From NCBI GenBank assembly GCA_964356915.1, contig CAYHJF010000005.1, positions 1 through 58,331 on the forward strand: a stretch of 58,331 nucleotides of DNA. The letters run 5' to 3'. Positions 27,555 to 35,934 of the stretch are shown here, piece after piece. Below the pieces are notes generated by a model. That model did no database searches, was not told the DNA's origin, and saw only the letters and a list, made by a program, of their open reading frames with translations. The translations under genes were made by a program, and so were the position numbers. Source of the stretch: an uncultured Candidatus Saccharibacteria bacterium. Its GTDB lineage: Bacteria; Patescibacteriota; Minisyncoccia; Ryanbacterales; GWA2-47-10b. Position 1 is the first letter of the stretch. The number at the start of each line of letters is the position of its first letter.

Positions 27555-29243
27555 ATGACGCACGAACAGTTGCACGAATTACTGGTTACGCCCGGACACG
27601 TACGGGAGGAGGACTTTCAAGCGGCGCTCGCGGAGGCGGGATCGTCTAAAAAGGCGCCTCTCGAGGTTCTGGTTGATAAAGGACTTGTAAAAGATGAGCA
27701 AGTTGGACAACTTATCGCGGGATCTTTAGGGATGCCCTTTGTAAATTTGCGCGAAGAAAAGATCGAAGAGGTTTTACTGAATGTAGTTCCCGAGCTCGTC
27801 GCCCGATCAAAAGAGATTATTGTTTTTGGGCGTGCTCAGGGTGGACCGAAAATTGCTACCGCGCATCCTGAAGATATAGAGACGATTCATTTTATTGAAA
27901 AGCGTTTGGGGGAAAAAGCTCTTGTGTATTACGCAACCTCACTCGACCTTCATAACGCATTGTCTCGCTACAAGACCGGGCTCAAGGACGCATTTCAGGG
28001 AACACTGACAAAGCTTGAAGGTGAGACATTGTCTCGCGAAGAGCAGGATGAGGGTATCGTGGCACTTGTTGATACGCTTCTGCGATACGGATATGAATCA
28101 AAGGTTTCAGATATTCATGTCGAGCCACATAAAGAACAGGGCGTGATACGATTTCGCATTGATGGCATTATGCATGACGTTCTGACGATTCCCGCGCGAC
28201 TTCTTGAGTCTATTATCACGCGTATCAAGGTGCTTGCAAAAATGCGAACGGATGAACATCGCGCCGCACAAGATGGTAAGTTGACTTTTCAAGCAGAGGA
28301 CGATGAGACGGTTGACGTGCGCGTTTCATCGGTGCCGATCACGAATGGTGAGAATATTGTCATGCGTATTTTGTCGGCGAAATCGCGCCAGTATAATATT
28401 GCCGACATAGGACTTTCAGAAGAAGATCTCGTAAAAGTAGAACGCTCTATCGATGACCCACACGGAATGATTTTAGTGACAGGTCCTACAGGGTCGGGTA
28501 AGACGACGACTGTGTATGCCATGCTCAAGATTTTGAATACGCGTGATGTACATATCGCGACCATCGAAGATCCTGTCGAGTATGATATTGAGGGGATCAG
28601 TCAAATTCAGGTAAATCAACGAACGGATTTAACTTTTGCAAAAGGTCTCCGCGCGATCGTGCGTCAAGACCCCGATATCATCATGGTAGGTGAAATCCGA
28701 GATGAAGAGACTGCGGGTATCGCAGTTAACTCTGCGATGACGGGTCATCTTGTGTTATCGACACTACATGCCAATGATGCTGCTACGACGCTCCCACGTT
28801 TGCTCGACATGGGTATCGAGCCGTTTTTAGTTTCCTCTACGGTAAATATTATTATTGCTCAACGTTTGGTTCGAAAGATTTGTGATAAGTGCCGTGTTTC
28901 GTATCCTGCAAGTGAAGCGGAGGATCACATGATTCGCTCAACTCCGCATATTGCTGAAGCATTTGGTGCTACTCGTCTTAAGGCGCTTCCGAAGACTCGT
29001 TTTTATAAAGGATCAGGATGCAATGTATGTAGTCAGACGGGGTATCTTGGACGCGTGGGTATTTTTGAAGTACTTATGATGGATGATGAGATAAAAGCAC
29101 TTGTAACAAAGCGCGCAACCTCACCGGAGATTATCAAGCTTGCACGTGAGCGTGGTATGGCAACTATGATGGAAGATGGCATTAGAAAGGCGATCGCCGG
29201 AATCACAACCCTGGACGAAGTGGTTCGGGCAACAATGGAATAA
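27555..29243 (+). CDS. pilB: Type IV pilus / type II secretion assembly ATPase (PilB/GspE family)
   Basis: It has an N-terminal GspE-N domain, Walker A 'GPTGSGKTT', an Asp box, Walker B 'IIMVGEIRD', and the tetracysteine motif 'CDKC...CNVC'. Confidence 0.9.
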   Translation: MTHEQLHELLVTPGHVREEDFQAALAEAGSSKKAPLEVLVDKGLVKDEQVGQLIAGSLGMPFVNLREEKIEEVLLNVVPELVARSKEIIVFGRAQGGPKIATAHPEDIETIHFIEKRLGEKALVYYATSLDLHNALSRYKTGLKDAFQGTLTKLEGETLSREEQDEGIVALVDTLLRYGYESKVSDIHVEPHKEQGVIRFRIDGIMHDVLTIPARLLESIITRIKVLAKMRTDEHRAAQDGKLTFQAEDDETVDVRVSSVPITNGENIVMRILSAKSRQYNIADIGLSEEDLVKVERSIDDPHGMILVTGPTGSGKTTTVYAMLKILNTRDVHIATIEDPVEYDIEGISQIQVNQRTDLTFAKGLRAIVRQDPDIIMVGEIRDEETAGIAVNSAMTGHLVLSTLHANDAATTLPRLLDMGIEPFLVSSTVNIIIAQRLVRKICDKCRVSYPASEAEDHMIRSTPHIAEAFGATRLKALPKTRFYKGSGCNVCSQTGYLGRVGIFEVLMMDDEIKALVTKRATSPEIIKLARERGMATMMEDGIRKAIAGITTLDEVVRATME

Positions 29244-29246
29244 TAT

Positions 29247-29978
29247 ATGGCAAAAAAATCAAAATCTCGCCTTACCGCTAATATGAAAAATATCACCGAA
29301 GTTACATCGGTGATTTCGCATCAGTTAAAGACACCGCTTGCAGGTATCAAGTCTGCGCTCGAAGTATTATTGTCGGGTGATTTAGGCTCATTAAATAAAG
29401 ATCAGCAAGAATACGTTACGCTTGCGCTTTCGAGCGCTGCAAAAATGATTGGTCTTGTAAAAAATCTTCTCGATGCTTCCCGTATTGATGAGAAGCGAAT
29501 GCAGCTGACACTTACGAAAGCAGACTTCGGAAAAATTGTTGAAAGAGTTATTGGAGATCTTGAAAGTTTTGCGCGTGCAAAAAATTCACAGATTATCACT
29601 CGCATCGAATCAAATCTACCAGTACTTTCCATTGATGAGACAAAGATACAAGAGGTTGTTAATAATCTTGTGTTTAATGCTATTCGATATACGAGAGGCA
29701 AAGGGAGTATTGTCGTCGCAGTTTCAAAAAAAGGAGGAAATCTTTTATTCTCGTGTGCTGACAATGGCATTGGCATGACCCCGTCAGAACAAAAAAATAT
29801 TTTTAAGAAGTTTTATCGAAGCCCGCGTGTCGTAGAGCTCGCAACAGAGGGTTCCGGGTTAGGGCTCTTTATATCCCGCGCGATCATACGTCAGAGTGGT
29901 GGAAAAGTATGGTTTGAGAGCAAGCAAAACCAAGGAACAACATTTTATTTCACCTTACCGATAAAACCGATACAATAG
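29247..29978 (+). CDS. Cytoplasmic (sensorless) histidine kinase
   Basis: The H-box is 'ISHQLKTPL', the N-box 'VVNNLVFNAIRYT', G1 'DNGIGM' and G2 'GSGLGL'. There is no TM or input domain ahead of the DHp helix. Confidence 0.85.
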   Translation: MAKKSKSRLTANMKNITEVTSVISHQLKTPLAGIKSALEVLLSGDLGSLNKDQQEYVTLALSSAAKMIGLVKNLLDASRIDEKRMQLTLTKADFGKIVERVIGDLESFARAKNSQIITRIESNLPVLSIDETKIQEVVNNLVFNAIRYTRGKGSIVVAVSKKGGNLLFSCADNGIGMTPSEQKNIFKKFYRSPRVVELATEGSGLGLFISRAIIRQSGGKVWFESKQNQGTTFYFTLPIKPIQ

Positions 29979-29982
29979 AACT

Positions 29983-30396
29983 ATGAGTACGCCAGAACAA
30001 CAAGAACCGAAACATAAGATTCTTTTAATTGAGGATGATAAGTTTTTAATAAAACTTTATAGCGATAAGCTGACGCGGGAAGGTTTTGAGGTCAGCATGG
30101 CGATCACAGGAGAGGAGGGACTGAGTAAAGTAAAGAGTGAAAAGCCCGAACTCATATTGCTCGATGTGATACTGCCTCAAAAAAACGGATTCGATATTCT
30201 AAGCGCTCTCAAACTCGATAGTACGACCAAGTCAATTCCGGTAGTGATGCTTACAAACTTGGGACAAGAATCTGATGTAAAGACAGGATTGGAGTTGGGG
30301 GCTGTAGATTATCTCGTAAAGACGGATTTCTCAATTACGCGGTTGCCTGAGGTGGTGCGCAAACATATTGCTCTTCATACAAAAAAAGGAAAATAA
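29983..30396 (+). CDS. Single-domain response regulator (CheY/PilH-like receiver)
   Basis: It has 'ILLIEDD', the phospho-acceptor region 'LILLDVILP', 'VVMLTN' and 'DYLVK'. There is no output domain. Confidence 0.85.
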   Translation: MSTPEQQEPKHKILLIEDDKFLIKLYSDKLTREGFEVSMAITGEEGLSKVKSEKPELILLDVILPQKNGFDILSALKLDSTTKSIPVVMLTNLGQESDVKTGLELGAVDYLVKTDFSITRLPEVVRKHIALHTKKGK

Positions 30397-30405
30397 CATC
30401 ACATA

Positions 30406-31482
30406 ATGCAACGCAACGTTCTTCATACAGAAGTATCCATCGGGGGCGTCTCACTCGCAGAGCGCGCGCTTTTTGCTAAACACTTGGCGATTATGCTCAA
30501 GTCGGGACTAACTGTCACTGAGGCTCTCGAGATCGCGCAGGATGCTTCGTCGGGGAAACTCAAGCGCACGATCGGACATGTGCGTCTGTCGGTTGAATCG
30601 GGTCGAACGTTGTCACAGGCGCTTGCAGAGCATACTCGGATATTTTCTCCACTCTTCGTACAAGCTACGTATGCGGGAGAGGTGAGCGGCACACTTGTCG
30701 AAAATCTTGAGAATATTGCTCTCGAGCTCGAAAAAGAGAAAGAGCTCGTTGCAAAAGTAAAGGGAGCATTGATTTATCCAGTCGTGGTACTTGTTGCATC
30801 ATTTTTTCTCGCAATGGGTCTTACATTTTTTATCTTGCCCAAAATCGTTCCTTTGTTTGAAGGATTAAAGGTAGATCTGCCCGTGACAACGCGCGCGCTG
30901 ATTATATTTGCGCATGCGGTTGAGAATAATGGCATTATGCTTTTTGGTGGTACGTTTGGTGGGGCGCTCGCGCTTTCAATATTATTACGTCAGCGTTTTA
31001 TGCAGCCTATTACGCACATGGCACTTCTTCACATGCCAATTTTGAAGCCGATTGTACGCGGGGCAAATCTAACTCGTTTTTCAAGAACGCTTGGCATGTT
31101 GATTAAGAGTGGTGTAACGATTGATGAGGCGCTTGAGATTACAAAAAATTCGATGGGGAATTATTATTATCGTCAGTCACTTAGCGCGGTAAGTCATCAT
31201 ATTGGAAAGAGCGCGAAGCTCGCTGAAAGTCTTGAGCAATTTGCCTCTCTCTATCCTCCTGTGGTGACAAAGATGATTCGAGTAGGTGAGTCCTCGGGAC
31301 GTTTTGAAGAGACACTTTTATATCTTGCCGATTTTTATGAAGCAGAGATGGATAATGCAACAAAATCTCTTGCGACTGCAATCGAGCCGATCTTGCTCCT
31401 TATTATCGGAGTGGTGGTCGGAGGTCTCGCGCTCTCCATTATCACGCCGATTTATGAAATCACGGGCAATATTCAACGGTAG
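30406..31482 (+). CDS. pilC: Type IV pilus platform protein (PilC/GspF family)
   Basis: It has two GspF repeats with 3 TM segments, e.g. 'FAKHLAIMLKSGLTVTEAL' and 'FSRTLGMLIKSGVTIDEAL'. Confidence 0.9.
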   Translation: MQRNVLHTEVSIGGVSLAERALFAKHLAIMLKSGLTVTEALEIAQDASSGKLKRTIGHVRLSVESGRTLSQALAEHTRIFSPLFVQATYAGEVSGTLVENLENIALELEKEKELVAKVKGALIYPVVVLVASFFLAMGLTFFILPKIVPLFEGLKVDLPVTTRALIIFAHAVENNGIMLFGGTFGGALALSILLRQRFMQPITHMALLHMPILKPIVRGANLTRFSRTLGMLIKSGVTIDEALEITKNSMGNYYYRQSLSAVSHHIGKSAKLAESLEQFASLYPPVVTKMIRVGESSGRFEETLLYLADFYEAEMDNATKSLATAIEPILLLIIGVVVGGLALSIITPIYEITGNIQR

Positions 31483-31948
31483 AGCATTTACGCTCGTTGA
31501 GCTTGTGATTGTGATGGGCATTATGCTCGCGACACTTGTTGCCGCGACTCCCATTTACGGTAATTTATATTTTTCAACACAACTTGATGAGGCGAAGTCA
31601 GATTTAATTCAAAAGTTCCGAACCGCGCGTCAGCGAGCGGTTGCAGGTTTTGATAATAAAACGCACGGTGTGTATCTCGATATTAATTTTAGCGGAACAC
31701 AGGATCGATATATTTTGTACAGCAGGAGCGGTACATCATATGGCACGGCCGATCCAACTGATACAATTGTAGTATTAGACCAAGCGCTTCAACTTGAGCG
31801 AGATCCTGCTCAGCTTTCTTCTGCCGATATTAATTTTACAAAAGGAGGCGGAGCGCCGTCAGTGAATGGTACGTTTACTATTCGTCATGTTTCCGAGGGT
31901 ATTCGTACGATTCGCATTACGCCGCTCGGTCTTATCCGCGAACAATAA
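31454..31948 (+). CDS. Minor pilin-like protein (GspH/FimT-like)
   Basis: The prepilin-like N-terminus reads 'MKSRAIFNGRAFTLVELVIVMGIMLA'. The start overlaps the pilC 3' end. I trimmed from the track start at 31286. Confidence 0.7.
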   Translation: MKSRAIFNGRAFTLVELVIVMGIMLATLVAATPIYGNLYFSTQLDEAKSDLIQKFRTARQRAVAGFDNKTHGVYLDINFSGTQDRYILYSRSGTSYGTADPTDTIVVLDQALQLERDPAQLSSADINFTKGGGAPSVNGTFTIRHVSEGIRTIRITPLGLIREQ

Positions 31949-31952
31949 TAGT

Positions 31953-34900
31953 ATGAAGTGGAATCGAGGACAATCGATGTTTGAGATTATCGTAGCGCTT
32001 GGTATTTTTGCGCTTCTTGTTGTCGCGCTCGCTCAGTTATCTGCTGGTGGGTACACGGGATTTTTGCGTGGAGGGGAATACACGCAAGCTCAGTCACTTG
32101 TTAGTGAGGCAGTTGAGGCGTTGCGTTCGGTGCGAGAGGGCGCATGGAATGAAATTGTTGGTACGAATGTTGTTGTGTCGTTGAGTGGCGGAGCATGGCA
32201 AGTTACGAGCGGTGTTTCAGAGCTTGTTGATAATAAATATACACGCAAGATTGAACTCACGGATGTTTGCCGAGATTCTGCAGGATCAATCGTATCGTGT
32301 CCAGCGACAGGTACAAATTACAAAGATCCTTATGCGAAGCAGGCAAATATTTCTGTTTCGTGGGGGCTTGGTAATACTGCGACAACATCGCTATTGCTTA
32401 CAAACTGGGATTCAAAGGATTGGACGCAAACTGATTGGAAAGATGGGGGAGGCCAAGTTATTTGGTCTGATCCAGAAAAATATGGTTCGGGAGTAAATAC
32501 TGATCATTCATTTTCAGGGCAAATTAGTCTTGCGCCCACATTTGGTAGTGCGATAATGGCGCGTTCTGCGGGAGGTCCTGTGATTCAACAAACAACTGAG
32601 AGCGAATTTAATGCTGGAGCATTCGTAAATACGCAAGTAAGCGGACTGGGTTCCGCTGGCGCTGTAGAATTACAGAAAAGCTTTCAAATTGTGCTTGATC
32701 CTGCGAGTGGCGTTGTAACAACAAAAGGAATTAATGCAATCGGTGTCGTGCCGGGATCGGAAGAAGCGTGGGCTGTCGGGAACGGTGGACTTATCTTGCA
32801 CTATATTCCTGGGACTGGGTGGCAGTTAATTCCTTCTGTGCCTGCTCTTGCGACGCGCGATCTCAATGCTATTCACGTGATTTCTCAAAATCATTGGGTC
32901 GCTGTTGGTGGTAATGCATTTCTCGAATATCAAGACGGGATGTTTAGCGCTGTAGCCCCAACAGGTTATGTCGCAAACGGGGTTCATATGATGAATGACC
33001 ATGAAGGTTGGGCTGTAGGTCGTAATAAGTTTATAGGTGGCTATAGTGCGACATCATCGCAAATTATCATTCCTTCGACAACTGTTGACTATAACTTTAA
33101 TGATGTGTATGAACAAAATGGTATAGCTTTAGTGGCTACCCAACTATCTGGAAACGGTGCGTATACGTGGCGGGTTGCTCCTTATACTGGTTTTAGTTCT
33201 TGGCGGTTACCTGCTGGTTTAACGCAGGGCGTTCCGATGGCTATTCATGGTGATGGAACTTATTTTTGGTCTGTTGGTACGAATGGTAGAATAGATAGAA
33301 TTGTGGCCGATGGAGGTGGTTACGGAATAAACTCTTACAACGTTGCTTCCAACGCTGACCTCGAAGGCATTTTTATGGTTTCCCCAACTGATGGTTGGGC
33401 GGTTGGAAGTGGCGGGCGGATTTTTAGATTTAATGGGACATCATGGCAGTCCGTTCCTTCTCCGGCAACTACAGGGTTAAGGGATGTCGTAATGACTTCT
33501 CCTACATCCGGCTGGGTCGTTGGTTCCAGTGGAACTATTTTGAAAATAGGAGAAGTATATGTCTCCTCGGGTATATTTGAGTCGGATGTTATTGATAGTG
33601 GCAGTCAAAGTACTACATGGGATGTAACTTATTGGTCTCAATCGGTTCCAGTCGGCAGCTCGATCAGTTTGAGAGCTAGAACTGGCAATACACCAACGCC
33701 GGATGCTTCTTGGACAAATTATGGACCCAGTATGAGTCAAAATCTTTCGAGCGCTCCTCAGATAGCTCCTGGACAGTATATGCAATATCAGGCGACGCTT
33801 ACTCGAGGGGCTGACCCAAGTTTTTCTCCTGAGCTTAGCGATATTTCTTTTATTATTTTTCGTCCTCCGGTGGGGCAAGCTTTAAGTGATGTTGCTATAT
33901 TGTCTTCAAATGAAGTGTGGGCAGTTGGTAACCAGGGTAGCATTATTCATACGATAGACGGTGTAACATGGGTGCAAATAACTCCAAAACCAACGTTAAA
34001 AAATCTTTTTGGAGTTGCTTTTTTTTCTCCTAGAGATGGGTGGGCTGTTGGTGAAGCGGGTGTCATACTGCACTATGATGGGAGTAATTGGACTTCGGTT
34101 GTGTCACCCACAAATAAACAACTTAATTCAATTGTCATACTTAATGAAAACGAAGGGCGAATAGCTGGACATGATGGAACAATGCTCCGATGGAATGGAT
34201 CCGCTTGGGTTTCAGAATCTTTTCCTGTAGACAACCGTAATTTGAATGATGTTGATATTGTAGACAGCCCGACGGGTCTTATTGGTTATGCGGTAGGGAG
34301 TAGTGGTTTTATCGCAAAATATGGGAATGGAAGCTGGGGTATATTAAGTTCCGGTACATCGAAATCCTTACAGACAGTTGAAATTGTTAATTATAATGAT
34401 GTTTGGACTGGTGGTCAGGATGGAAAGACCTACCATACTATTAATGGCGGTTCTAGTTGGCCAGAGGTAGTAACGGGCATAAATTCTGATATTCGTAGTA
34501 TTGTATTTAGCAATGCTCTGAGCGGGTACGGAGTGGGAGTTAATGGTAAGATAATTCGTTATACGGGATTATGGTCATCATTAACTTCTCCAGTGACTCA
34601 GAATTTACATTCTATCGCCCTTCTCACTCCCTATAGTGGATGGATTGTCGGTGCCAACTCAACCGTTTTACAGTTTTTTACTACATACTCAATGTCAGGT
34701 TCTTTCATATCATCAGCTTTCAATATGACTGATAATTCTCCTGCTCAGATAGTTGAGTGGGATCAAGACATCCCACAAAATTGTTCTCCACCAACATGTG
34801 CCATTCGTTTGCAAATCTCTACAGCACCCGACGCGAGCGGCGTGCCGGGAGTGTGGAGTGAATGGGTAGGACCCGAAGGACTTGATGGGGACGAGACGGA

Positions 34901-35042
34901 TTATTTTATCAGCTCAAAAGGAGAATTAATTTCTGCCGCGCTCAACGGGAAACGATGGGTTCGATATCGTGTATTTCTCGATGGTGATGCTCAGCAAAAT
35001 TACACCCCAATTTTAAAAGAGGTACGGGTAAATTATAAATGA
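31953..35042 (+). CDS. Giant pilin-like protein (1029 aa): prepilin N-terminus + two beta-propeller blocks, each followed by a ~100-aa module
   Basis: The N-terminus is 'MKWNRGQSMFEIIVALGIFALLVVAL'. Thirteen W-[AVS]-V-G-x2-G-type blade motifs follow in two blocks. I trimmed to the ATG at 31953. Confidence 0.75.
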   Translation: MKWNRGQSMFEIIVALGIFALLVVALAQLSAGGYTGFLRGGEYTQAQSLVSEAVEALRSVREGAWNEIVGTNVVVSLSGGAWQVTSGVSELVDNKYTRKIELTDVCRDSAGSIVSCPATGTNYKDPYAKQANISVSWGLGNTATTSLLLTNWDSKDWTQTDWKDGGGQVIWSDPEKYGSGVNTDHSFSGQISLAPTFGSAIMARSAGGPVIQQTTESEFNAGAFVNTQVSGLGSAGAVELQKSFQIVLDPASGVVTTKGINAIGVVPGSEEAWAVGNGGLILHYIPGTGWQLIPSVPALATRDLNAIHVISQNHWVAVGGNAFLEYQDGMFSAVAPTGYVANGVHMMNDHEGWAVGRNKFIGGYSATSSQIIIPSTTVDYNFNDVYEQNGIALVATQLSGNGAYTWRVAPYTGFSSWRLPAGLTQGVPMAIHGDGTYFWSVGTNGRIDRIVADGGGYGINSYNVASNADLEGIFMVSPTDGWAVGSGGRIFRFNGTSWQSVPSPATTGLRDVVMTSPTSGWVVGSSGTILKIGEVYVSSGIFESDVIDSGSQSTTWDVTYWSQSVPVGSSISLRARTGNTPTPDASWTNYGPSMSQNLSSAPQIAPGQYMQYQATLTRGADPSFSPELSDISFIIFRPPVGQALSDVAILSSNEVWAVGNQGSIIHTIDGVTWVQITPKPTLKNLFGVAFFSPRDGWAVGEAGVILHYDGSNWTSVVSPTNKQLNSIVILNENEGRIAGHDGTMLRWNGSAWVSESFPVDNRNLNDVDIVDSPTGLIGYAVGSSGFIAKYGNGSWGILSSGTSKSLQTVEIVNYNDVWTGGQDGKTYHTINGGSSWPEVVTGINSDIRSIVFSNALSGYGVGVNGKIIRYTGLWSSLTSPVTQNLHSIALLTPYSGWIVGANSTVLQFFTTYSMSGSFISSAFNMTDNSPAQIVEWDQDIPQNCSPPTCAIRLQISTAPDASGVPGVWSEWVGPEGLDGDETDYFISSKGELISAALNGKRWVRYRVFLDGDAQQNYTPILKEVRVNYK

Positions 35043-35536
35043 GCACGAAGCGCGCATTTACGCTGATTGAGACCGTGCTTTATGTGGCGATTCTTGGAAT
35101 GATCGCAGGTAGTTTAATTTTGTTTAGTATTTCTATGTCGACGGCACGGGCGAAAGACGCGGTTATCGAAGAAGTAAATACGGGTGCGCGTAATTCGCTG
35201 GGTATTATTTCATCAAAAATTAGACAAGCGACAGCGGTAACCGTACCGCTGCCAGGAGCATCAAATACAGTTCTCGGTCTTGATATGCCTGCGCCAACGC
35301 CTGATGTTGTAATTCTCCCGTTCAATGGCGTATTAAATTATATTGATTCGGCTGTTGGAGCTCAACAGATGACAAGTAATAATGTGCGTGTAAAAAATAT
35401 TCTTTTCCAAAATGTAGCGAGTGCGGGAGAGCGTGATGCATTAAAGATTACGCTGACCCTTCAGGTGAATGCGTCTAGTTCCCCGGAGTTTAATTATGAG
35501 CAGACAGTTTCAACAACTGTTATGACGCATTTATGA
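35039..35536 (+). CDS. Minor pilin-like protein
   Basis: The N-terminus is 'MSTKRAFTLIETVLYVAILGMIAG'. It shares an ATGA overlap with the upstream gene. Confidence 0.75.
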   Translation: MSTKRAFTLIETVLYVAILGMIAGSLILFSISMSTARAKDAVIEEVNTGARNSLGIISSKIRQATAVTVPLPGASNTVLGLDMPAPTPDVVILPFNGVLNYIDSAVGAQQMTSNNVRVKNILFQNVASAGERDALKITLTLQVNASSSPEFNYEQTVSTTVMTHL

Positions 35537-35934
35537 ACAAGGGAGTTGCTGCATTAATCATTATCTTTGTTATCGGTGGTGCTGCTTTTTTGATGGTATA
35601 TCGAAATGCATTTTTAGGTTTAGGGGAACTTGAAAATGGCATTACGTATACAGGGGAACAGCGCATGATTGCAATGACAGAGGGTTGCATGGAGGAGGCG
35701 CTGTTGAGACTTCGAAGATCGGCTACGTATACCGGCGGTACGTTACAGATTACAGGCGGATCGTGTACAATATCTGTAACAGGAGCTGGGAGTAATCGTA
35801 CTATTACAACAACTGCACGCATGGCAGGGACATCGCCGTATTGCAGACAAATTGAATCACAAGTTACGCGTACAGGTTTTACTATTACCCTTGGTACGTG
35901 GGTTGAGAAAACAAACTGGGTTACAGCATGTTAG
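35533..35934 (+). CDS. Pilus-associated small protein with an N-terminal TM (PilX/ComGG-like, no E5)
   Basis: The N-terminus 'MNKGVAALIIIFVIGGAAFLMVY' is followed by a beta-rich body with 'GGSCTISVTG...'. It overlaps both neighbours. Confidence 0.5.
   Translation: MNKGVAALIIIFVIGGAAFLMVYRNAFLGLGELENGITYTGEQRMIAMTEGCMEEALLRLRRSATYTGGTLQITGGSCTISVTGAGSNRTITTTARMAGTSPYCRQIESQVTRTGFTITLGTWVEKTNWVTAC

What the first reader, a model, noticed from the sequence alone, without database searches (positions are those of the whole stretch)
31953..35042. 1029-aa prepilin-tagged protein with two beta-propeller blocks and an internal [propeller + ~100-aa module] duplication
**Seen in sequence.**
- The ORF opens with a class-III-type signal, 'MKWNRGQSMFEIIVALGIFALLVVAL'. 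It has a Gly, a Glu five residues later, then a hydrophobic helix.
- It sits inside the pilus operon with ATGA-type overlaps to its neighbours.
- The body has 13 blade-like repeats centred on W-[AVS]-V-G-x2-G-x-I, often followed by G-x-x-W.
- The first block has six: AWAVGNGGLILHY, HWVAVGGNAFLEY, GWAVGRNKF, FWSVGTNGRIDRI, GWAVGSGGRIFRFNGTSW, GWVVGSSGTILKI.
- The second block has seven: VWAVGNQGSIIHTIDGVTW, GWAVGEAGVILHYDGSNW, RIAGHDGTMLRWNGSAW, GYAVGSSGFIAKYGNGSW, VWTGGQDGKTYHTINGGSSW, GYGVGVNGKIIRY, GWIVGANSTVLQF.
- Each block is followed by a ~100-aa module with the same outline. One runs 'SSGIFESDVIDSG...GQYMQYQATL...SPELSDISFI'. The other runs 'MSGSFISSAFNMTD...KRWVRYRVFL...TPILKEVRVNY'.

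**Established knowledge.** This repeat type resembles Ycf48/BNR-like propellers. Type IV pilins are normally 100-200 aa.

**Inference.** This could be a pilus-presented (tip or shaft) binding module of roughly 110 kDa, for example for attachment to a host cell or a polymer.
Basis: partly seen in the sequence, partly recalled or inferred. Interest (0 to 1): 0.72.

Follow-up and report, generated by a model that had tools for sequence, protein, structure and literature searches.

The report
Giant twin-propeller modular minor pilin
A groundwater ultra-small (CPR) bacterium encodes, inside its type IV pilus operon, a 109 kDa pilin-headed protein that probably displays two beta-propeller binding domains at the pilus tip. 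It belongs to a large, so far unnamed family in which the same pilin scaffold carries many different adhesin-like inserts.

Summary
ORF 31953-35042 encodes 1029 aa with a conserved prepilin signal (G6|QSMFE, Glu at +5). The protein has a pilin head, two Ycf48-like seven-bladed propellers, and a ~100-aa beta-sandwich module after each propeller.

It is not supported by experiment.

- The protein belongs to a large CPR/Patescibacteria family (at least 337 clusters at E<=1e-30).
- Only the N-terminal pilin domain and the C-terminal module are constant in that family.
- The cargo between them ranges from 0 to about 2100 aa. It can be Ycf48 propellers, ConA/LamG lectins, pentraxin, H-lectin or unknown domains.
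- The gene always lies second among four minor-pilin genes: GspH-like, this gene, a canonical pilin, then a Glu5-less pilin.
- In one clade the pilin part and the cargo plus C-module are separate adjacent genes. The second gene has its own signal peptide.

I infer that the C-module is a docking domain completed by a strand segment next to the pilin domain, and that the cargo is a nested insertion in it.

This is a new variant of the known "modular pilin" kind. The ligand is unknown.

The parts
31953..35042 (+). Whole gene: 1029-aa modular minor pilin (mature 108.7 kDa, pI 4.75)
   Evidence: identical protein on an independent contig
31953..31970 (+). Leader peptide MKWNRG (aa 1-6), predicted prepilin-peptidase cleavage after Gly6
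   Evidence: Read from the sequence; the G|QSxxE motif is conserved in relatives
31971..32135 (+). Alpha-1 helix of the pilin module (aa 7-61), with Glu at +5 and a hydrophobic N-terminal half
   Evidence: AF2 model has a helix at 8-61, pLDDT 76-88
32136..32414 (+). [quoted passage not shown]
   Evidence: Strands 73-150 in the model; invariant C..C in the alignments; the protein has only 4 Cys
32415..32552 (+). Conserved tail 'DWTQTDWxGGxGQxIWSD...G.I.L' (aa 155-200). Proposed to be the N-terminal strand segment of the C-terminal beta-sandwich (mod2)
   Evidence: Conserved in the family. In Actinomycetes locus L013 the same segment directly follows a Sec signal, without a pilin domain, and is followed by an insert and then a module body. 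AF2 confidence is low here. The assignment is an inference.
32586..32681 (+). 'TDF hairpin' (aa 212-243, TESEFNAGAFVNTQVSGLGSAGAVELQ). Proposed to be the N-terminal strands of module 1
   Evidence: HMM i-E 2.8e-15. The number of hairpins equals the number of modules minus one in 115 of 137 family proteins. Hairpin and module are contiguous in P0006.
32730..33557 (+). Propeller 1 (aa 260-535), Ycf48-like. Blades 1, 5, 6 and 7 are clear; blades 2-4 are degenerate
   Evidence: pLDDT 31-54 over aa 297-425
33558..33872 (+). Module 1 body (aa 536-640), a beta-sandwich paralogous to mod2
   Evidence: pLDDT 66-88
33873..34688 (+). Propeller 2 (aa 641-912), a seven-bladed Ycf48-like propeller
   Evidence: pLDDT 94-98; Foldseek match to Ycf48, TM 0.73; 7 blades
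34689..35039 (+). Module 2 (aa 913-1029), a beta-sandwich (jelly-roll / CBM-like fold) with the Cys944-Cys949 pair. It is the constant C-terminus of the family
   Evidence: Lies at the extreme C-terminus of 114 of the top 150 family representatives and of all full-length genome-locus members. The model of the minimal member P0132 matches CBM6/CBM61-type sandwiches only weakly.
27555..29243 (+). PilB-type assembly ATPase with an MshEN domain
30406..31482 (+). PilC/GspF platform protein
31454..31948 (+). GspH/ComGD-like minor pilin (MKSRAIFNGRA|FTLVE)
35039..35536 (+). Minor pilin with a canonical motif (KRA|FTLIE); ATGA overlap with the target gene
35533..35934 (+). 133-aa pilin-like protein with Gly plus a hydrophobic helix but no Glu at +5. 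Candidate GspK-like cap
   Evidence: 8 of 8 orthologues lack Glu5
35928..37775 (+). PilM fused to a membrane-spanning extension and a C-terminal SH3_3 domain
37860..38399 (+). Probable major pilin (QKG|FTLIELLIV), 179 aa

Best explanation
The gene encodes a modular type IV minor pilin of a CPR (Patescibacteria) bacterium.

**Proposed mechanism.**
1. A prepilin peptidase removes the six-residue leader after Gly6.
2. The hydrophobic alpha-1 helix with Glu5 then lets the small pilin module join the complex of four minor pilins that primes pilus assembly. That complex ends up at the pilus tip.
3. The rest of the protein, about 95 kDa, is carried outside the filament as an adhesin head.

**Layout of the head.**
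- Directly after the pilin fold comes a short conserved strand segment.
- The chain then runs through the cargo: a small beta-sandwich that itself carries propeller 1, followed by propeller 2.
- The chain returns to finish a C-terminal beta-sandwich (mod2). Mod2 packs with the segment next to the pilin domain.
- The cargo is therefore a nested insertion held at both ends.

**Function.**
- The two Ycf48-like seven-bladed propellers are the ligand-binding parts. The most likely ligand is a surface polymer or protein of the host cell on which the episymbiont lives.
- Different lineages have exchanged the cargo on the same scaffold for lectin-type or other domains.

**Shown:** domain composition, the duplication, the conserved signal, the conserved gene order, and family-wide cargo variation.

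**Inferred:** processing, tip location, the split-domain topology, and binding.
For: **Pilin identity.**
- The G|QSxxE motif, with Glu at +5 and a hydrophobic helix, is conserved in all relatives.
- The AF2 model shows a 54-residue N-terminal helix followed by a beta-sheet.
- Pfam N_methyl hits are found in orthologues.

**Operon.**
- The order PilB-(HK-RR)-PilC-GspH-like-TARGET-pilin-Glu5-less pilin-PilM-major pilin is found in the window.
- Essentially the same core order, with the HK/RR genes variably placed, is found in CPR loci such as L001, L003, L005, L008, L009 and L011.

**Core minor-pilin position.**
- The gene is second of four, matching the gspH-I-J-K order.
- Four family members give weak, sub-threshold NCBIfam hits to ComGE/PilV/GspI/XpsI.
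- The last of the four genes lacks Glu5 in 8 of 8 loci.

**Extracellular character.**
- The protein has only four Cys, in two conserved close pairs.
- Its GAST content is 37.7%, against 23-30% for cytoplasmic proteins of the window.

**Propellers.** Pfam E=2.8e-20; Foldseek match to Ycf48 with TM 0.73; pLDDT 94-98 for propeller 2.

**Scaffold plus cargo.**
- An N-domain profile finds 337 clusters at E<=1e-30. The top 150 are 171-2414 aa long, with the domain at or close to the N-terminus in all but a few.
- 114 of the 150 end in mod2. 32 carry Ycf48 propellers and 88 carry other cargo.
- Minimal members of about 330 aa consist of the N-domain plus mod2 only.
- Other cargos are Laminin_G_3 (11 of 44), LamG_2, pentraxin and H-lectin.
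- Scaffolds that are 63-73% identical carry quite different cargos.

**Split-domain docking.**
- Hairpin and module counts co-vary.
- Locus L013 has a non-pilin protein with the same arrangement of segment, insert and module.
- In L018/L019, L020 and the P0129 locus, the pilin domain plus hairpin is one gene. In L018/L019 and L020 the next gene starts with its own hydrophobic signal or anchor; no DNA was returned for the P0129 locus. In L018 the second gene ends in mod2.

**Precedents.**
- Modular pilins PilB and PilC of S. sanguinis (PMC8179133).
- In the Saccharibacterium TM7x, PilX1 is a pilin plus a jelly-roll domain. PilX2 is a pilin plus a seven-bladed propeller, and its deletion halves host binding (PMC11623550).
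Against: - There is no experimental evidence of any kind for this protein: no processing, localisation or binding data.
- The window holds no prepilin peptidase gene and no PilT.
- Pfam N_methyl does not reach its threshold on the window protein itself.
- Foldseek with the minimal family member returned only generic beta-sandwich hits at low TM (0.4-0.5) and no solved pilin among the top 50.
- AF2 confidence is low exactly where the split-domain idea needs it: aa 160-260 have pLDDT 51-73. No coordinates were available to check strand pairing.
- Half of propeller 1 is poorly predicted and its blades 2-4 are degenerate, so it may not be a functional binding domain.
- The assignment to the GspI/PilV class rests on sub-threshold hits and on gene order.
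- The ligand is unknown.
Confidence: 0.68

Rival explanations
1. The protein is a membrane-anchored surface adhesin and not a pilus subunit. The pilin-like N-terminus serves only as a cleavable signal or membrane anchor. The protein stays at the cell surface, or at the pilus base, and presents its propellers there.
For: The cargo of about 95 kDa cannot fit in the filament shaft, as argued for modular pilins in PMC8179133. The TM7x authors noted that PilX1 and PilX2 are not recognised as PilD substrates by SignalP. In the split forms the cargo protein has an ordinary signal or anchor.
Against: Glu5 and Gly-1 are strictly conserved in a family whose remaining sequence diverges to 30-40% identity. 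The gene keeps a fixed place among the minor pilin genes. In TM7x, deletion of pilX2 gives the same binding defect as loss of the major pilin.
Confidence: 0.15
2. It is the DNA receptor of a competence-type pilus, like ComZ of Thermus. On this view the head captures extracellular DNA for uptake, which CPR bacteria need for nucleotides.
For: CPR type IV pili have been proposed to work with ComEC in DNA uptake (PMC10633639). Large minor pilins can be DNA receptors, for example ComZ, cited in PMC8179133.
Against: Every domain is acidic, with pI 4.2-5.2, so no basic surface is evident. Sister cargos are lectin-type domains: Laminin_G_3, pentraxin and H-lectin. In TM7x the T4P-2 pilin mutants tested kept normal competence, and in Southlakia T4P essentiality is independent of comEC.
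Confidence: 0.05
3. The head is an enzyme, for example a BNR/sialidase-like or GH74-like glycosidase working on the host wall, and not a passive binder.
For: Asp-box-like 'DGxTW' motifs are present in the blades. One family member gives a weak Pfam BNR hit and one a trans-sialidase C-domain hit.
Against: No glycoside hydrolase family matches the window protein. The best fold match is Ycf48, a non-enzymatic assembly factor. The cargo varies among lectin-type folds.
Confidence: 0.07
4. It is an assembly or annotation artefact: two or more genes merged, or a decaying pseudogene.
For: Blades 2-4 of propeller 1 are degenerate and poorly modelled. Split versions of the gene exist in other lineages.
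Against: The reading frame is open for 3090 nt. The same protein is found on an independent contig. The same architecture of pilin, propeller, module, propeller and module, at about 1000 aa, occurs in P0004, L001, L005 and L009, and in about ten further 50%-identity cluster representatives.
Confidence: 0.03

Closest known systems
Modular type IV pilins PilB (vWA module) and PilC (ConA-like lectin module) of Streptococcus sanguinis (Raynaud et al. 2021, PMC8179133; PMC9934059)
   Same: A class III signal and a small pilin module carry a bulky adhesion domain not specific to pili. Tip display is predicted. Sister members of the present family carry the same lectin superfamily, Laminin_G_3 / ConA-like.
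   Different: In S. sanguinis one module is appended C-terminally, and PilB and PilC come in addition to the four core minor pilins. Here the cargo lies between the pilin module and a constant C-terminal beta-sandwich. The cargo consists of two Ycf48-type propellers plus an extra sandwich. The gene occupies a core minor-pilin slot. No sequence homology was tested or seen.
PilX2 and PilX1 of Nanosynbacter lyticus TM7x (Saccharibacteria; Grossman et al., PMC11623550 / PMC12206443)
   Same: Both are CPR minor pilins with large accessory domains. PilX2 has a seven-bladed propeller and is needed for efficient host binding. PilX1 has a jelly-roll domain resembling CBMs and capsid proteins, is the largest pilin of the main T4P locus, and has GAST 36.5%, against 37.7% here. 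Both have non-canonical signals. Our minimal scaffold (pilin plus mod2, with CBM/capsid-like Foldseek hits) fits the description of PilX1.
   Different: The PilX2 propeller is RCC1-type, not Ycf48-type, and is single. Neither protein is described as having cargo inserted between the pilin and a constant C-module. Sequence relationship could not be tested, because no TM7x sequences were at hand.
PilY1 / PilC tip adhesins of type IVa pili (Pseudomonas, Neisseria, Myxococcus)
   Same: A large tip-located adhesin with a beta-propeller and variable modules, dependent on the core minor pilins. The split-gene variants of the present family resemble this arrangement: a non-pilin adhesin next to the minor pilin genes.
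   Different: PilY1 is not a pilin. Its propeller is the conserved carrier domain (IPR008707), not the variable part. No Pfam PilY1/Neisseria_PilC hit was found here.
Ycf48 / HCF136 photosystem II assembly factor (PF14870; PDB 5ojr, 2xbg, 8am5)
   Same: Seven-bladed propeller fold. Pfam E=2.8e-20, Foldseek TM 0.73, about 20% identity.
   Different: Ycf48 is a single-domain lumenal lipoprotein of phototrophs. Here two copies sit in a pilin of a non-photosynthetic episymbiont. The NCBIfam equivalog cut-off is far from met (65 bits against 326). Many other non-photosynthetic surface proteins carry the same propeller, for example with SLH, T9SS or Loki-CTERM contexts.
GspK (T2SS) and ComZ (Thermus), minor pilins with a domain inserted in the pilin fold
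   Same: Tip-located minor (pseudo)pilins enlarged by an inserted domain.
   Different: In those proteins the insertion is within the pilin beta-sheet. Here it is proposed to lie in a separate beta-sandwich that follows the pilin fold. GspK lacks Glu5, whereas the target keeps it. The Glu5-less protein of this operon is the 133-aa gene two genes downstream.

Membership tests
Type IV pilins (class III signal peptide, IPR012902 / PF07963) | Short polar leader ending in Gly, Glu at +5, about 20 hydrophobic residues | tested here: met
   MKWNRG|QSMFEIIVALGIFALLVVALA. The motif is conserved in relatives. Pfam N_methyl is below threshold on this protein but hits orthologues. Position +1 is Gln, not Phe/Met.
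Type IV pilins (class III signal peptide, IPR012902 / PF07963) | Lollipop fold: long N-terminal helix packed on an antiparallel beta-sheet | tested here: inconclusive
   AF2 secondary structure fits: helix 8-61 and strands 73-159 in the target, with the same pattern in P0132. However, no solved pilin appeared among the top 50 Foldseek hits, and a profile search of PDB sequences found none.
Type IV pilins (class III signal peptide, IPR012902 / PF07963) | Encoded with type IV filament machinery | tested here: met
   PilB, PilC, PilM, three further pilin-like genes and a major pilin lie in one co-directional cluster. The synteny holds in CPR loci.
Type IV pilins (class III signal peptide, IPR012902 / PF07963) | Cleaved by a prepilin peptidase and polymerised into the filament | not testable with these tools
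   No PilD gene lies in the window. This needs proteomics or labelling.
Modular pilins (sensu Raynaud et al. 2021) | Pilin module plus at least one domain that is not specific to type IV filament biology | tested here: met
   PF14870 propellers follow the pilin module. The definition is read from PMC8179133.
Core minor pilin of GspI / PilV / ComGE type | Sequence membership in the GspI/PilV/ComGE models | tested here: inconclusive
   Hits are consistent but sub-threshold: E 0.00086-0.56, 10-20 bits against cut-offs of 44-150 bits, in four family members.
Core minor pilin of GspI / PilV / ComGE type | Second gene in an H-I-J-K-like minor pilin row whose last member lacks Glu5 | tested here: met
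Ycf48 / PSII_BNR propeller (PF14870) | Pfam domain score above the gathering threshold, and a seven-bladed fold | tested here: met
   73.2 bits against a cut-off of 27. Foldseek 5ojr_D TM 0.73.
Ycf48 / PSII_BNR propeller (PF14870) | Functional equivalog of the photosystem II assembly factor (NCBIfam NF010237) | tested here: not met
   65 bits against a cut-off of 326. The context is a pilus operon of a CPR genome.
PilY1 / PilC tip adhesins (PF05567, IPR008707) | C-terminal PilY1-type propeller | tested here: not met
   No such Pfam hit at E<=0.01.
TM7x PilX1 / PilX2 | Sequence homology to the TM7x proteins | not tested
   No sequences were available here. The supplement examined (supplementary table 1, primers) carries no protein sequences. 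The resemblance is by published description only.

The most novel reading that the evidence does not exclude
The family is a CPR-wide display system for host recognition. It consists of a core minor pilin in the GspI/PilV slot, joined to a split beta-sandwich whose first loop accepts whole adhesin cassettes: propellers, lectins, and nested copies of the sandwich itself.

The sandwich can also work in trans. In the split-gene clade, a separately secreted cargo protein would dock on the pilin by completing the domain. That would link modular pilins and PilY1-type non-pilin tip adhesins in one evolutionary series.

On this reading the cargo type sets which host cell an episymbiont can attach to.
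Probability: 0.35. Interest if true: 0.75.

Novelty: new variant of a known kind. Interest (0 to 1): 0.55.

Why it matters
CPR/Patescibacteria are a large share of bacterial diversity, and the cultivated ones live attached to host cells. How the uncultivated ones choose hosts is unknown.

In the few cultivated Saccharibacteria, type IV pili and large accessory-domain minor pilins are already implicated in host binding.

This finding gives three things:
- **A sequence-defined scaffold.** It is recognisable by the pilin domain with the 'DWTQTDW' motif and by the constant C-module.
- **A way to find candidate host-recognition heads.** The scaffold makes it possible to pull them out of any CPR genome and compare cargo with ecology.
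- **A testable structural idea.** It proposes how very large adhesins are fixed to a pilus tip.

For this particular gene the practical result is a candidate adhesin: two Ycf48-type propellers on one pilin.

Tried and rejected
- **Locus search with the 7-sequence N-domain alignment.** The search for related loci failed for lack of a conserved stretch. A 4-sequence alignment worked.
- **Profile search of PDB sequences with the N-domain and the module alignment.** There were no meaningful hits. The LigA and AA10 matches are short and weak.
- **Third homologue search with the module profile.** Only 2 trivial hits came back, because the word index yielded only 667 candidates. The distribution of the module outside pilins therefore rests on locus L013 alone.
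- **Foldseek on the minimal family member.** It gave only generic CBM/jelly-roll and viral capsid sandwiches at TM 0.4-0.5. That is enough to name the fold class and not enough to infer a ligand.
- **TM7x PilX1 sequence in the paper's supplements.** One of the six held files was read (supplementary table 1); it lists primers only. The other five were not opened.
- **Neighbour-joining tree in the sandbox.** It timed out and was replaced by identity clustering. The apparent polyphyly of propeller cargo is therefore only suggestive.
- **Same reading frame of gene 1 and gene 2 in the three split-gene loci.** I considered this as a sign of stop-codon read-through. I rejected it as evidence, because the three loci probably form one clade and gene 2 has its own signal peptide.
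- **DNA-receptor and enzyme readings.** I rejected both as main explanations; see the rival explanations.

Full report
**1. What is in the sequence**

The ORF at 31953-35042 on the + strand is open for 1029 codons.
- A longer version starts at 31866. It would overlap the upstream gene by 83 nt and bury the signal motif. The N-termini of relatives support the ATG at 31953.
- A gene caller started the identical metagenomic copy (P0001, 1021 aa) at Met9, which hides the signal.
- That copy lies on an independent 4.3 kb contig from Hainich aquifer well H41, 0.1 um fraction.

The window has about 44% GC and uniform composition. It carries housekeeping genes on both sides of an 11 kb pilus cluster: BipA, PGI, ROK kinase, MltG/YceG, MnmA, AlaRS, ClpB, DnaK/DnaJ, RpoA and S4.

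**2. The signal and the pilin module**

- The N-terminus reads MKWNRG|QSMFEIIVALGIFALLVVALA. It has Gly at -1, Glu at +5 and a hydrophobic stretch of about 21 residues.
- The motif G|QS(L/M)(I/L/F)E recurs in metagenomic relatives and in 12 genome loci.
- AF2 predicts a 54-residue helix (aa 8-61) followed by a beta-sheet (aa 73-159). The minimal family member P0132 gives the same pattern.
- A Cys pair (106/116 in the target) is invariant in the family. A second close pair (944/949) lies in the C-terminal module. The protein has no other Cys.
- The GAST content is 37.7%, like the other pilins of the operon (33-42%) and unlike PilB, ClpB and DnaK (23-30%).
- Foldseek and PDB sequence searches did not return solved pilins. 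The pilin fold is therefore supported by topology and context, not by a structural match.

**3. The propellers and the modules**

- Pfam finds PSII_BNR (Ycf48) at E=2.8e-20. PDB sequence search finds Ycf48 chains at about 1e-11.
- In the AF2 model (mean pLDDT 78.3), aa 644-912 form a propeller with pLDDT 94-98. Its strand pattern gives seven four-stranded blades.
- The best single-domain Foldseek match is Ycf48 (5ojr_D, E=6.6e-15, TM 0.73, rmsd 3.7 A, 20% identity).
- The first block (aa 260-535) also has a strand pattern compatible with seven blades. However, aa 297-425 have pLDDT 31-54.
- A blade HMM built from block 2 recognises only five blades in block 1, four of them significantly. Blades 2-4 are degenerate.
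- The two halves align at 27% identity over 389 columns, E=1.6e-32, so the duplication of [propeller + module] is real.
- The two modules are paralogues of one beta-sandwich type of about 100-118 aa.
- This module has no Pfam family and no relative among PDB sequences.
- The model of P0132 matches CBM6/CBM61/CBM28-type sandwiches and birnavirus capsid jelly rolls at low TM.

**4. The operon**

The cluster reads, in order:
1. PilB (with an MshEN domain)
2. a sensor-less histidine kinase
3. a single-domain receiver
4. PilC
5. a GspH/ComGD-like minor pilin (..GRA|FTLVE)
6. the target
7. a canonical minor pilin (KRA|FTLIE)
8. a 133-aa pilin-like protein with Gly plus a hydrophobic helix but no Glu5
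9. a PilM fusion ending in an SH3 domain
10. the probable major pilin (QKG|FTLIE)

The order H-like, target, canonical pilin, Glu5-less pilin mirrors the gspH-I-J-K / fimU-pilV-pilW-pilX / comGD-GE-GF-GG order (established knowledge).
- The Glu5-less state of the fourth gene is conserved in 8 of 8 loci.
- N-domains of four family members give consistent but sub-threshold NCBIfam hits to ComGE, PilV, GspI and XpsI.

I therefore regard the target as the occupant of the GspI/PilV slot of the tip-priming complex. This is an inference.

**5. The family**

- A back-translated motif of the N-domain (DWTQTDW) found 12 loci with a full N-domain match. Most are labelled as CPR lineages: Uhr-, Magasanik-, Ryan-, Dojka- and Saccharibacteria and other Parcubacteria. 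Two are labelled 'uncultured Gammaproteobacteria' and one only 'bacterium'.
- The pilus gene order is the same in these loci, apart from the variable placement of the HK and RR genes.
- In all full-length members the N-domain and the C-terminal module (mod2) are present. The middle differs.
- A profile search of 1.84 billion cluster representatives gave 9833 hits at E<=1e-3, 3332 at E<=1e-10 and 337 at E<=1e-30. The best 150 are 171-2414 aa long, with the domain at or close to the N-terminus in all but a few.
- Of those 150, 114 end in mod2 within 8 residues of the C-terminus. 32 carry Ycf48-type propellers, and about ten of these have the same two-propeller layout of about 1000 aa. 88 carry other cargo.
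- Members of 297-332 aa consist of the N-domain directly followed by mod2.
- Pfam on 44 non-propeller members finds Laminin_G_3 in 11, Laminin_G_2 in 7, pentraxin in 3 and H-lectin in 2. Most of the cargo matches nothing.
- Scaffolds (N-domain plus mod2) that are 63-73% identical carry cargos of very different size or type:
  - P0253, 797 aa of cargo, against P0280, none;
  - P0223, 1057 aa, against P0227, 386 aa;
  - L001, two propellers, against L002, a LamG domain.
- The cargo is therefore exchanged on a conserved scaffold. The clustering used is crude, so I do not claim a number of exchange events.

**6. The split-domain idea**

Four observations suggest that the module is completed by a strand segment lying upstream of the cargo.
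- **(a) Hairpin and module counts co-vary.** Every internal module is accompanied by an upstream 'TDF..G.F....G..V.L' hairpin. In 115 of 137 family proteins with at least one module, the number of hairpins equals the number of modules minus one. In P0006 the hairpin and module are contiguous (aa 203-232 and 234-329). In the window, propeller 1 lies between them (aa 212-243 and 536-640).
- **(b) The N-domain tail sits where the hairpin sits.** The conserved tail of the N-domain (aa 155-200, DWTQTDWxGGxGQxIWSD...) occupies the position that the TDF hairpin has in P0005 and in the short forms.
- **(c) The arrangement exists without a pilin.** An Actinomycetes MAG (L013, 9851-11578) encodes a Sec-secreted protein with no pilin domain. 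It begins, right after the signal peptide, with IDWTQTDWSGGAGQPVWADSTKYESG...GQVRL. It continues with a ConA-like insert of about 200 aa and then a module body (...GRWLQYEVDL...TPVLNDVTATY).
- **(d) The two parts can be separate genes.**
  - The clade comprises P0122-P0130. I checked contexts for P0128, P0129 and P0130.
  - In this clade the pilin domain plus hairpin is a gene of 193-217 aa. It is followed 9-12 nt later by a second gene of 860, 494 or more than 252 aa.
  - In L018/L019 and L020 the second gene has its own Lys-rich, hydrophobic N-terminus. No DNA was returned for the P0129 locus.
  - In L018 the second gene ends in a typical mod2.
  - The rest of the operon is unchanged.

Together these suggest that tail (or hairpin) plus module body form one beta-sandwich whose first loop tolerates large insertions, and that mod2 is the part that fixes the cargo to the pilin. 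In fused forms it would do so in cis, and in split forms in trans.

AF2 confidence in aa 160-260 is low (pLDDT 51-73), and I had no coordinates. The topology is therefore inferred, not shown.

**7. How it most likely works**

- After cleavage at Gly6 the pilin module enters the minor-pilin complex that primes assembly, and it ends up at the distal end of the filament.
- The head is too large for the shaft. The same argument is made for modular pilins in PMC8179133.
- The propellers, and perhaps the sandwiches, bind a ligand on the partner cell or on a polymer.
- All domains are acidic, pI 4.2-5.2. That argues against DNA as the ligand.
- No glycoside hydrolase signature is present.
- The ligand cannot be named from these data.

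**8. Comparison with what is known**

- Modular pilins are an established category with hundreds of architectures, including CPR examples (PMC8179133).
- In the Saccharibacterium TM7x, PilX1 is a pilin plus a jelly-roll resembling CBMs and capsids, encoded in the main T4P locus. PilX2 is a pilin plus a seven-bladed RCC1 propeller, and its loss halves host binding. Both are described as candidate tip proteins. Both escape SignalP's PilD-substrate prediction (PMC11623550).
- The minimal scaffold found here fits the description of PilX1. I could not test homology.
- T4P genes are essential for epibiotic growth of Southlakia (PMC10633639).
- Interchangeable minor-pilin tips with variable domains are described for Myxococcus Kil/Tad pili (PMC12075869).
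- Full-text searches found no paper that combines pilins with Ycf48-type propellers, or that describes cargo inserted between a pilin and a constant C-module.

**9. Verdict**

- The object is a new variant of a known kind.
- The more interesting result is at family level: a constant scaffold, swappable nested cargo, and split-gene forms.

Noticed in passing
window 29247-30396: A sensor-less histidine kinase (243 aa, HisKA plus HATPase only) and a single-domain receiver (137 aa) lie between pilB and pilC. The Ryanbacteria locus L005 has the same order. In other CPR loci the pair, or extra receivers, lies upstream of pilB. PilB itself has an MshEN (c-di-GMP-binding type) N-domain.
   Followed up: partly
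window 35533-35934: A 133-aa protein with no family hit has a pilin-like N-terminus (MNKG|VAALIIIF...) without Glu at +5. This is conserved in 8 of 8 related loci. It is a candidate GspK-like cap of the tip complex.
   Followed up: partly
window 35928-37775: The PilM gene is a 615-aa fusion: an actin-like PilM, a membrane-spanning segment, a long extracytoplasmic part and a C-terminal SH3_3 domain. In locus L018 the SH3 part is a separate gene.
   Followed up: no
L018 6001-9186; L020 4144-5490; P0129 locus: These are split-gene versions of the family. The pilin domain plus TDF hairpin is one gene. After one or two stop codons, and 9-12 nt further on in the same reading frame, a second gene encodes the cargo; in L018/L019 and L020 it has its own signal or anchor (no DNA for the P0129 locus), and in L018 it ends in mod2. 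The shared frame is probably inherited from one ancestral split.
   Followed up: partly
L013 9851-11578 (Actinomycetes MAG): A Sec-secreted 575-aa protein without a pilin domain carries the same 'DWTQTDWSGG...' segment, a ConA-like (3-keto-disaccharide hydrolase-type) insert, a module body and a HYR domain. The split sandwich is therefore not confined to pilins or to CPR.
   Followed up: partly
window 13195-17538: A 649-aa protein with an N-terminal CopC domain lies next to a 794-aa minus-strand fusion of a FAD oxidoreductase (DAO), a Rieske 2Fe-2S domain and a ferric-reductase-type membrane domain. This is an unusual redox fusion for a reduced CPR genome. A superoxide dismutase (6002-6592) and SufS/NifU-type genes lie nearby.
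   Followed up: no
window 20483-21511(-), 21658-22695, 45329-46477, 46506-47990, 55567-56598: Five ORFs of 342-494 aa have no Pfam hit at the thresholds used (E<=1e-5 for four of them, E<=1e-4 for 55567-56598).
   Followed up: no
window 1-54 and 58276-58331: Partial tRNA genes are cut by both ends of the window.
   Followed up: no
window 32844-33228 (aa 297-425 of the target): Blades 2-4 of the first propeller are degenerate and poorly modelled, whereas the first-propeller region of orthologues (P0004 read directly; L001 and L005 by tblastn) shows clear blade motifs. This may mean relaxed constraint or a divergent binding surface in this lineage.
   Followed up: partly
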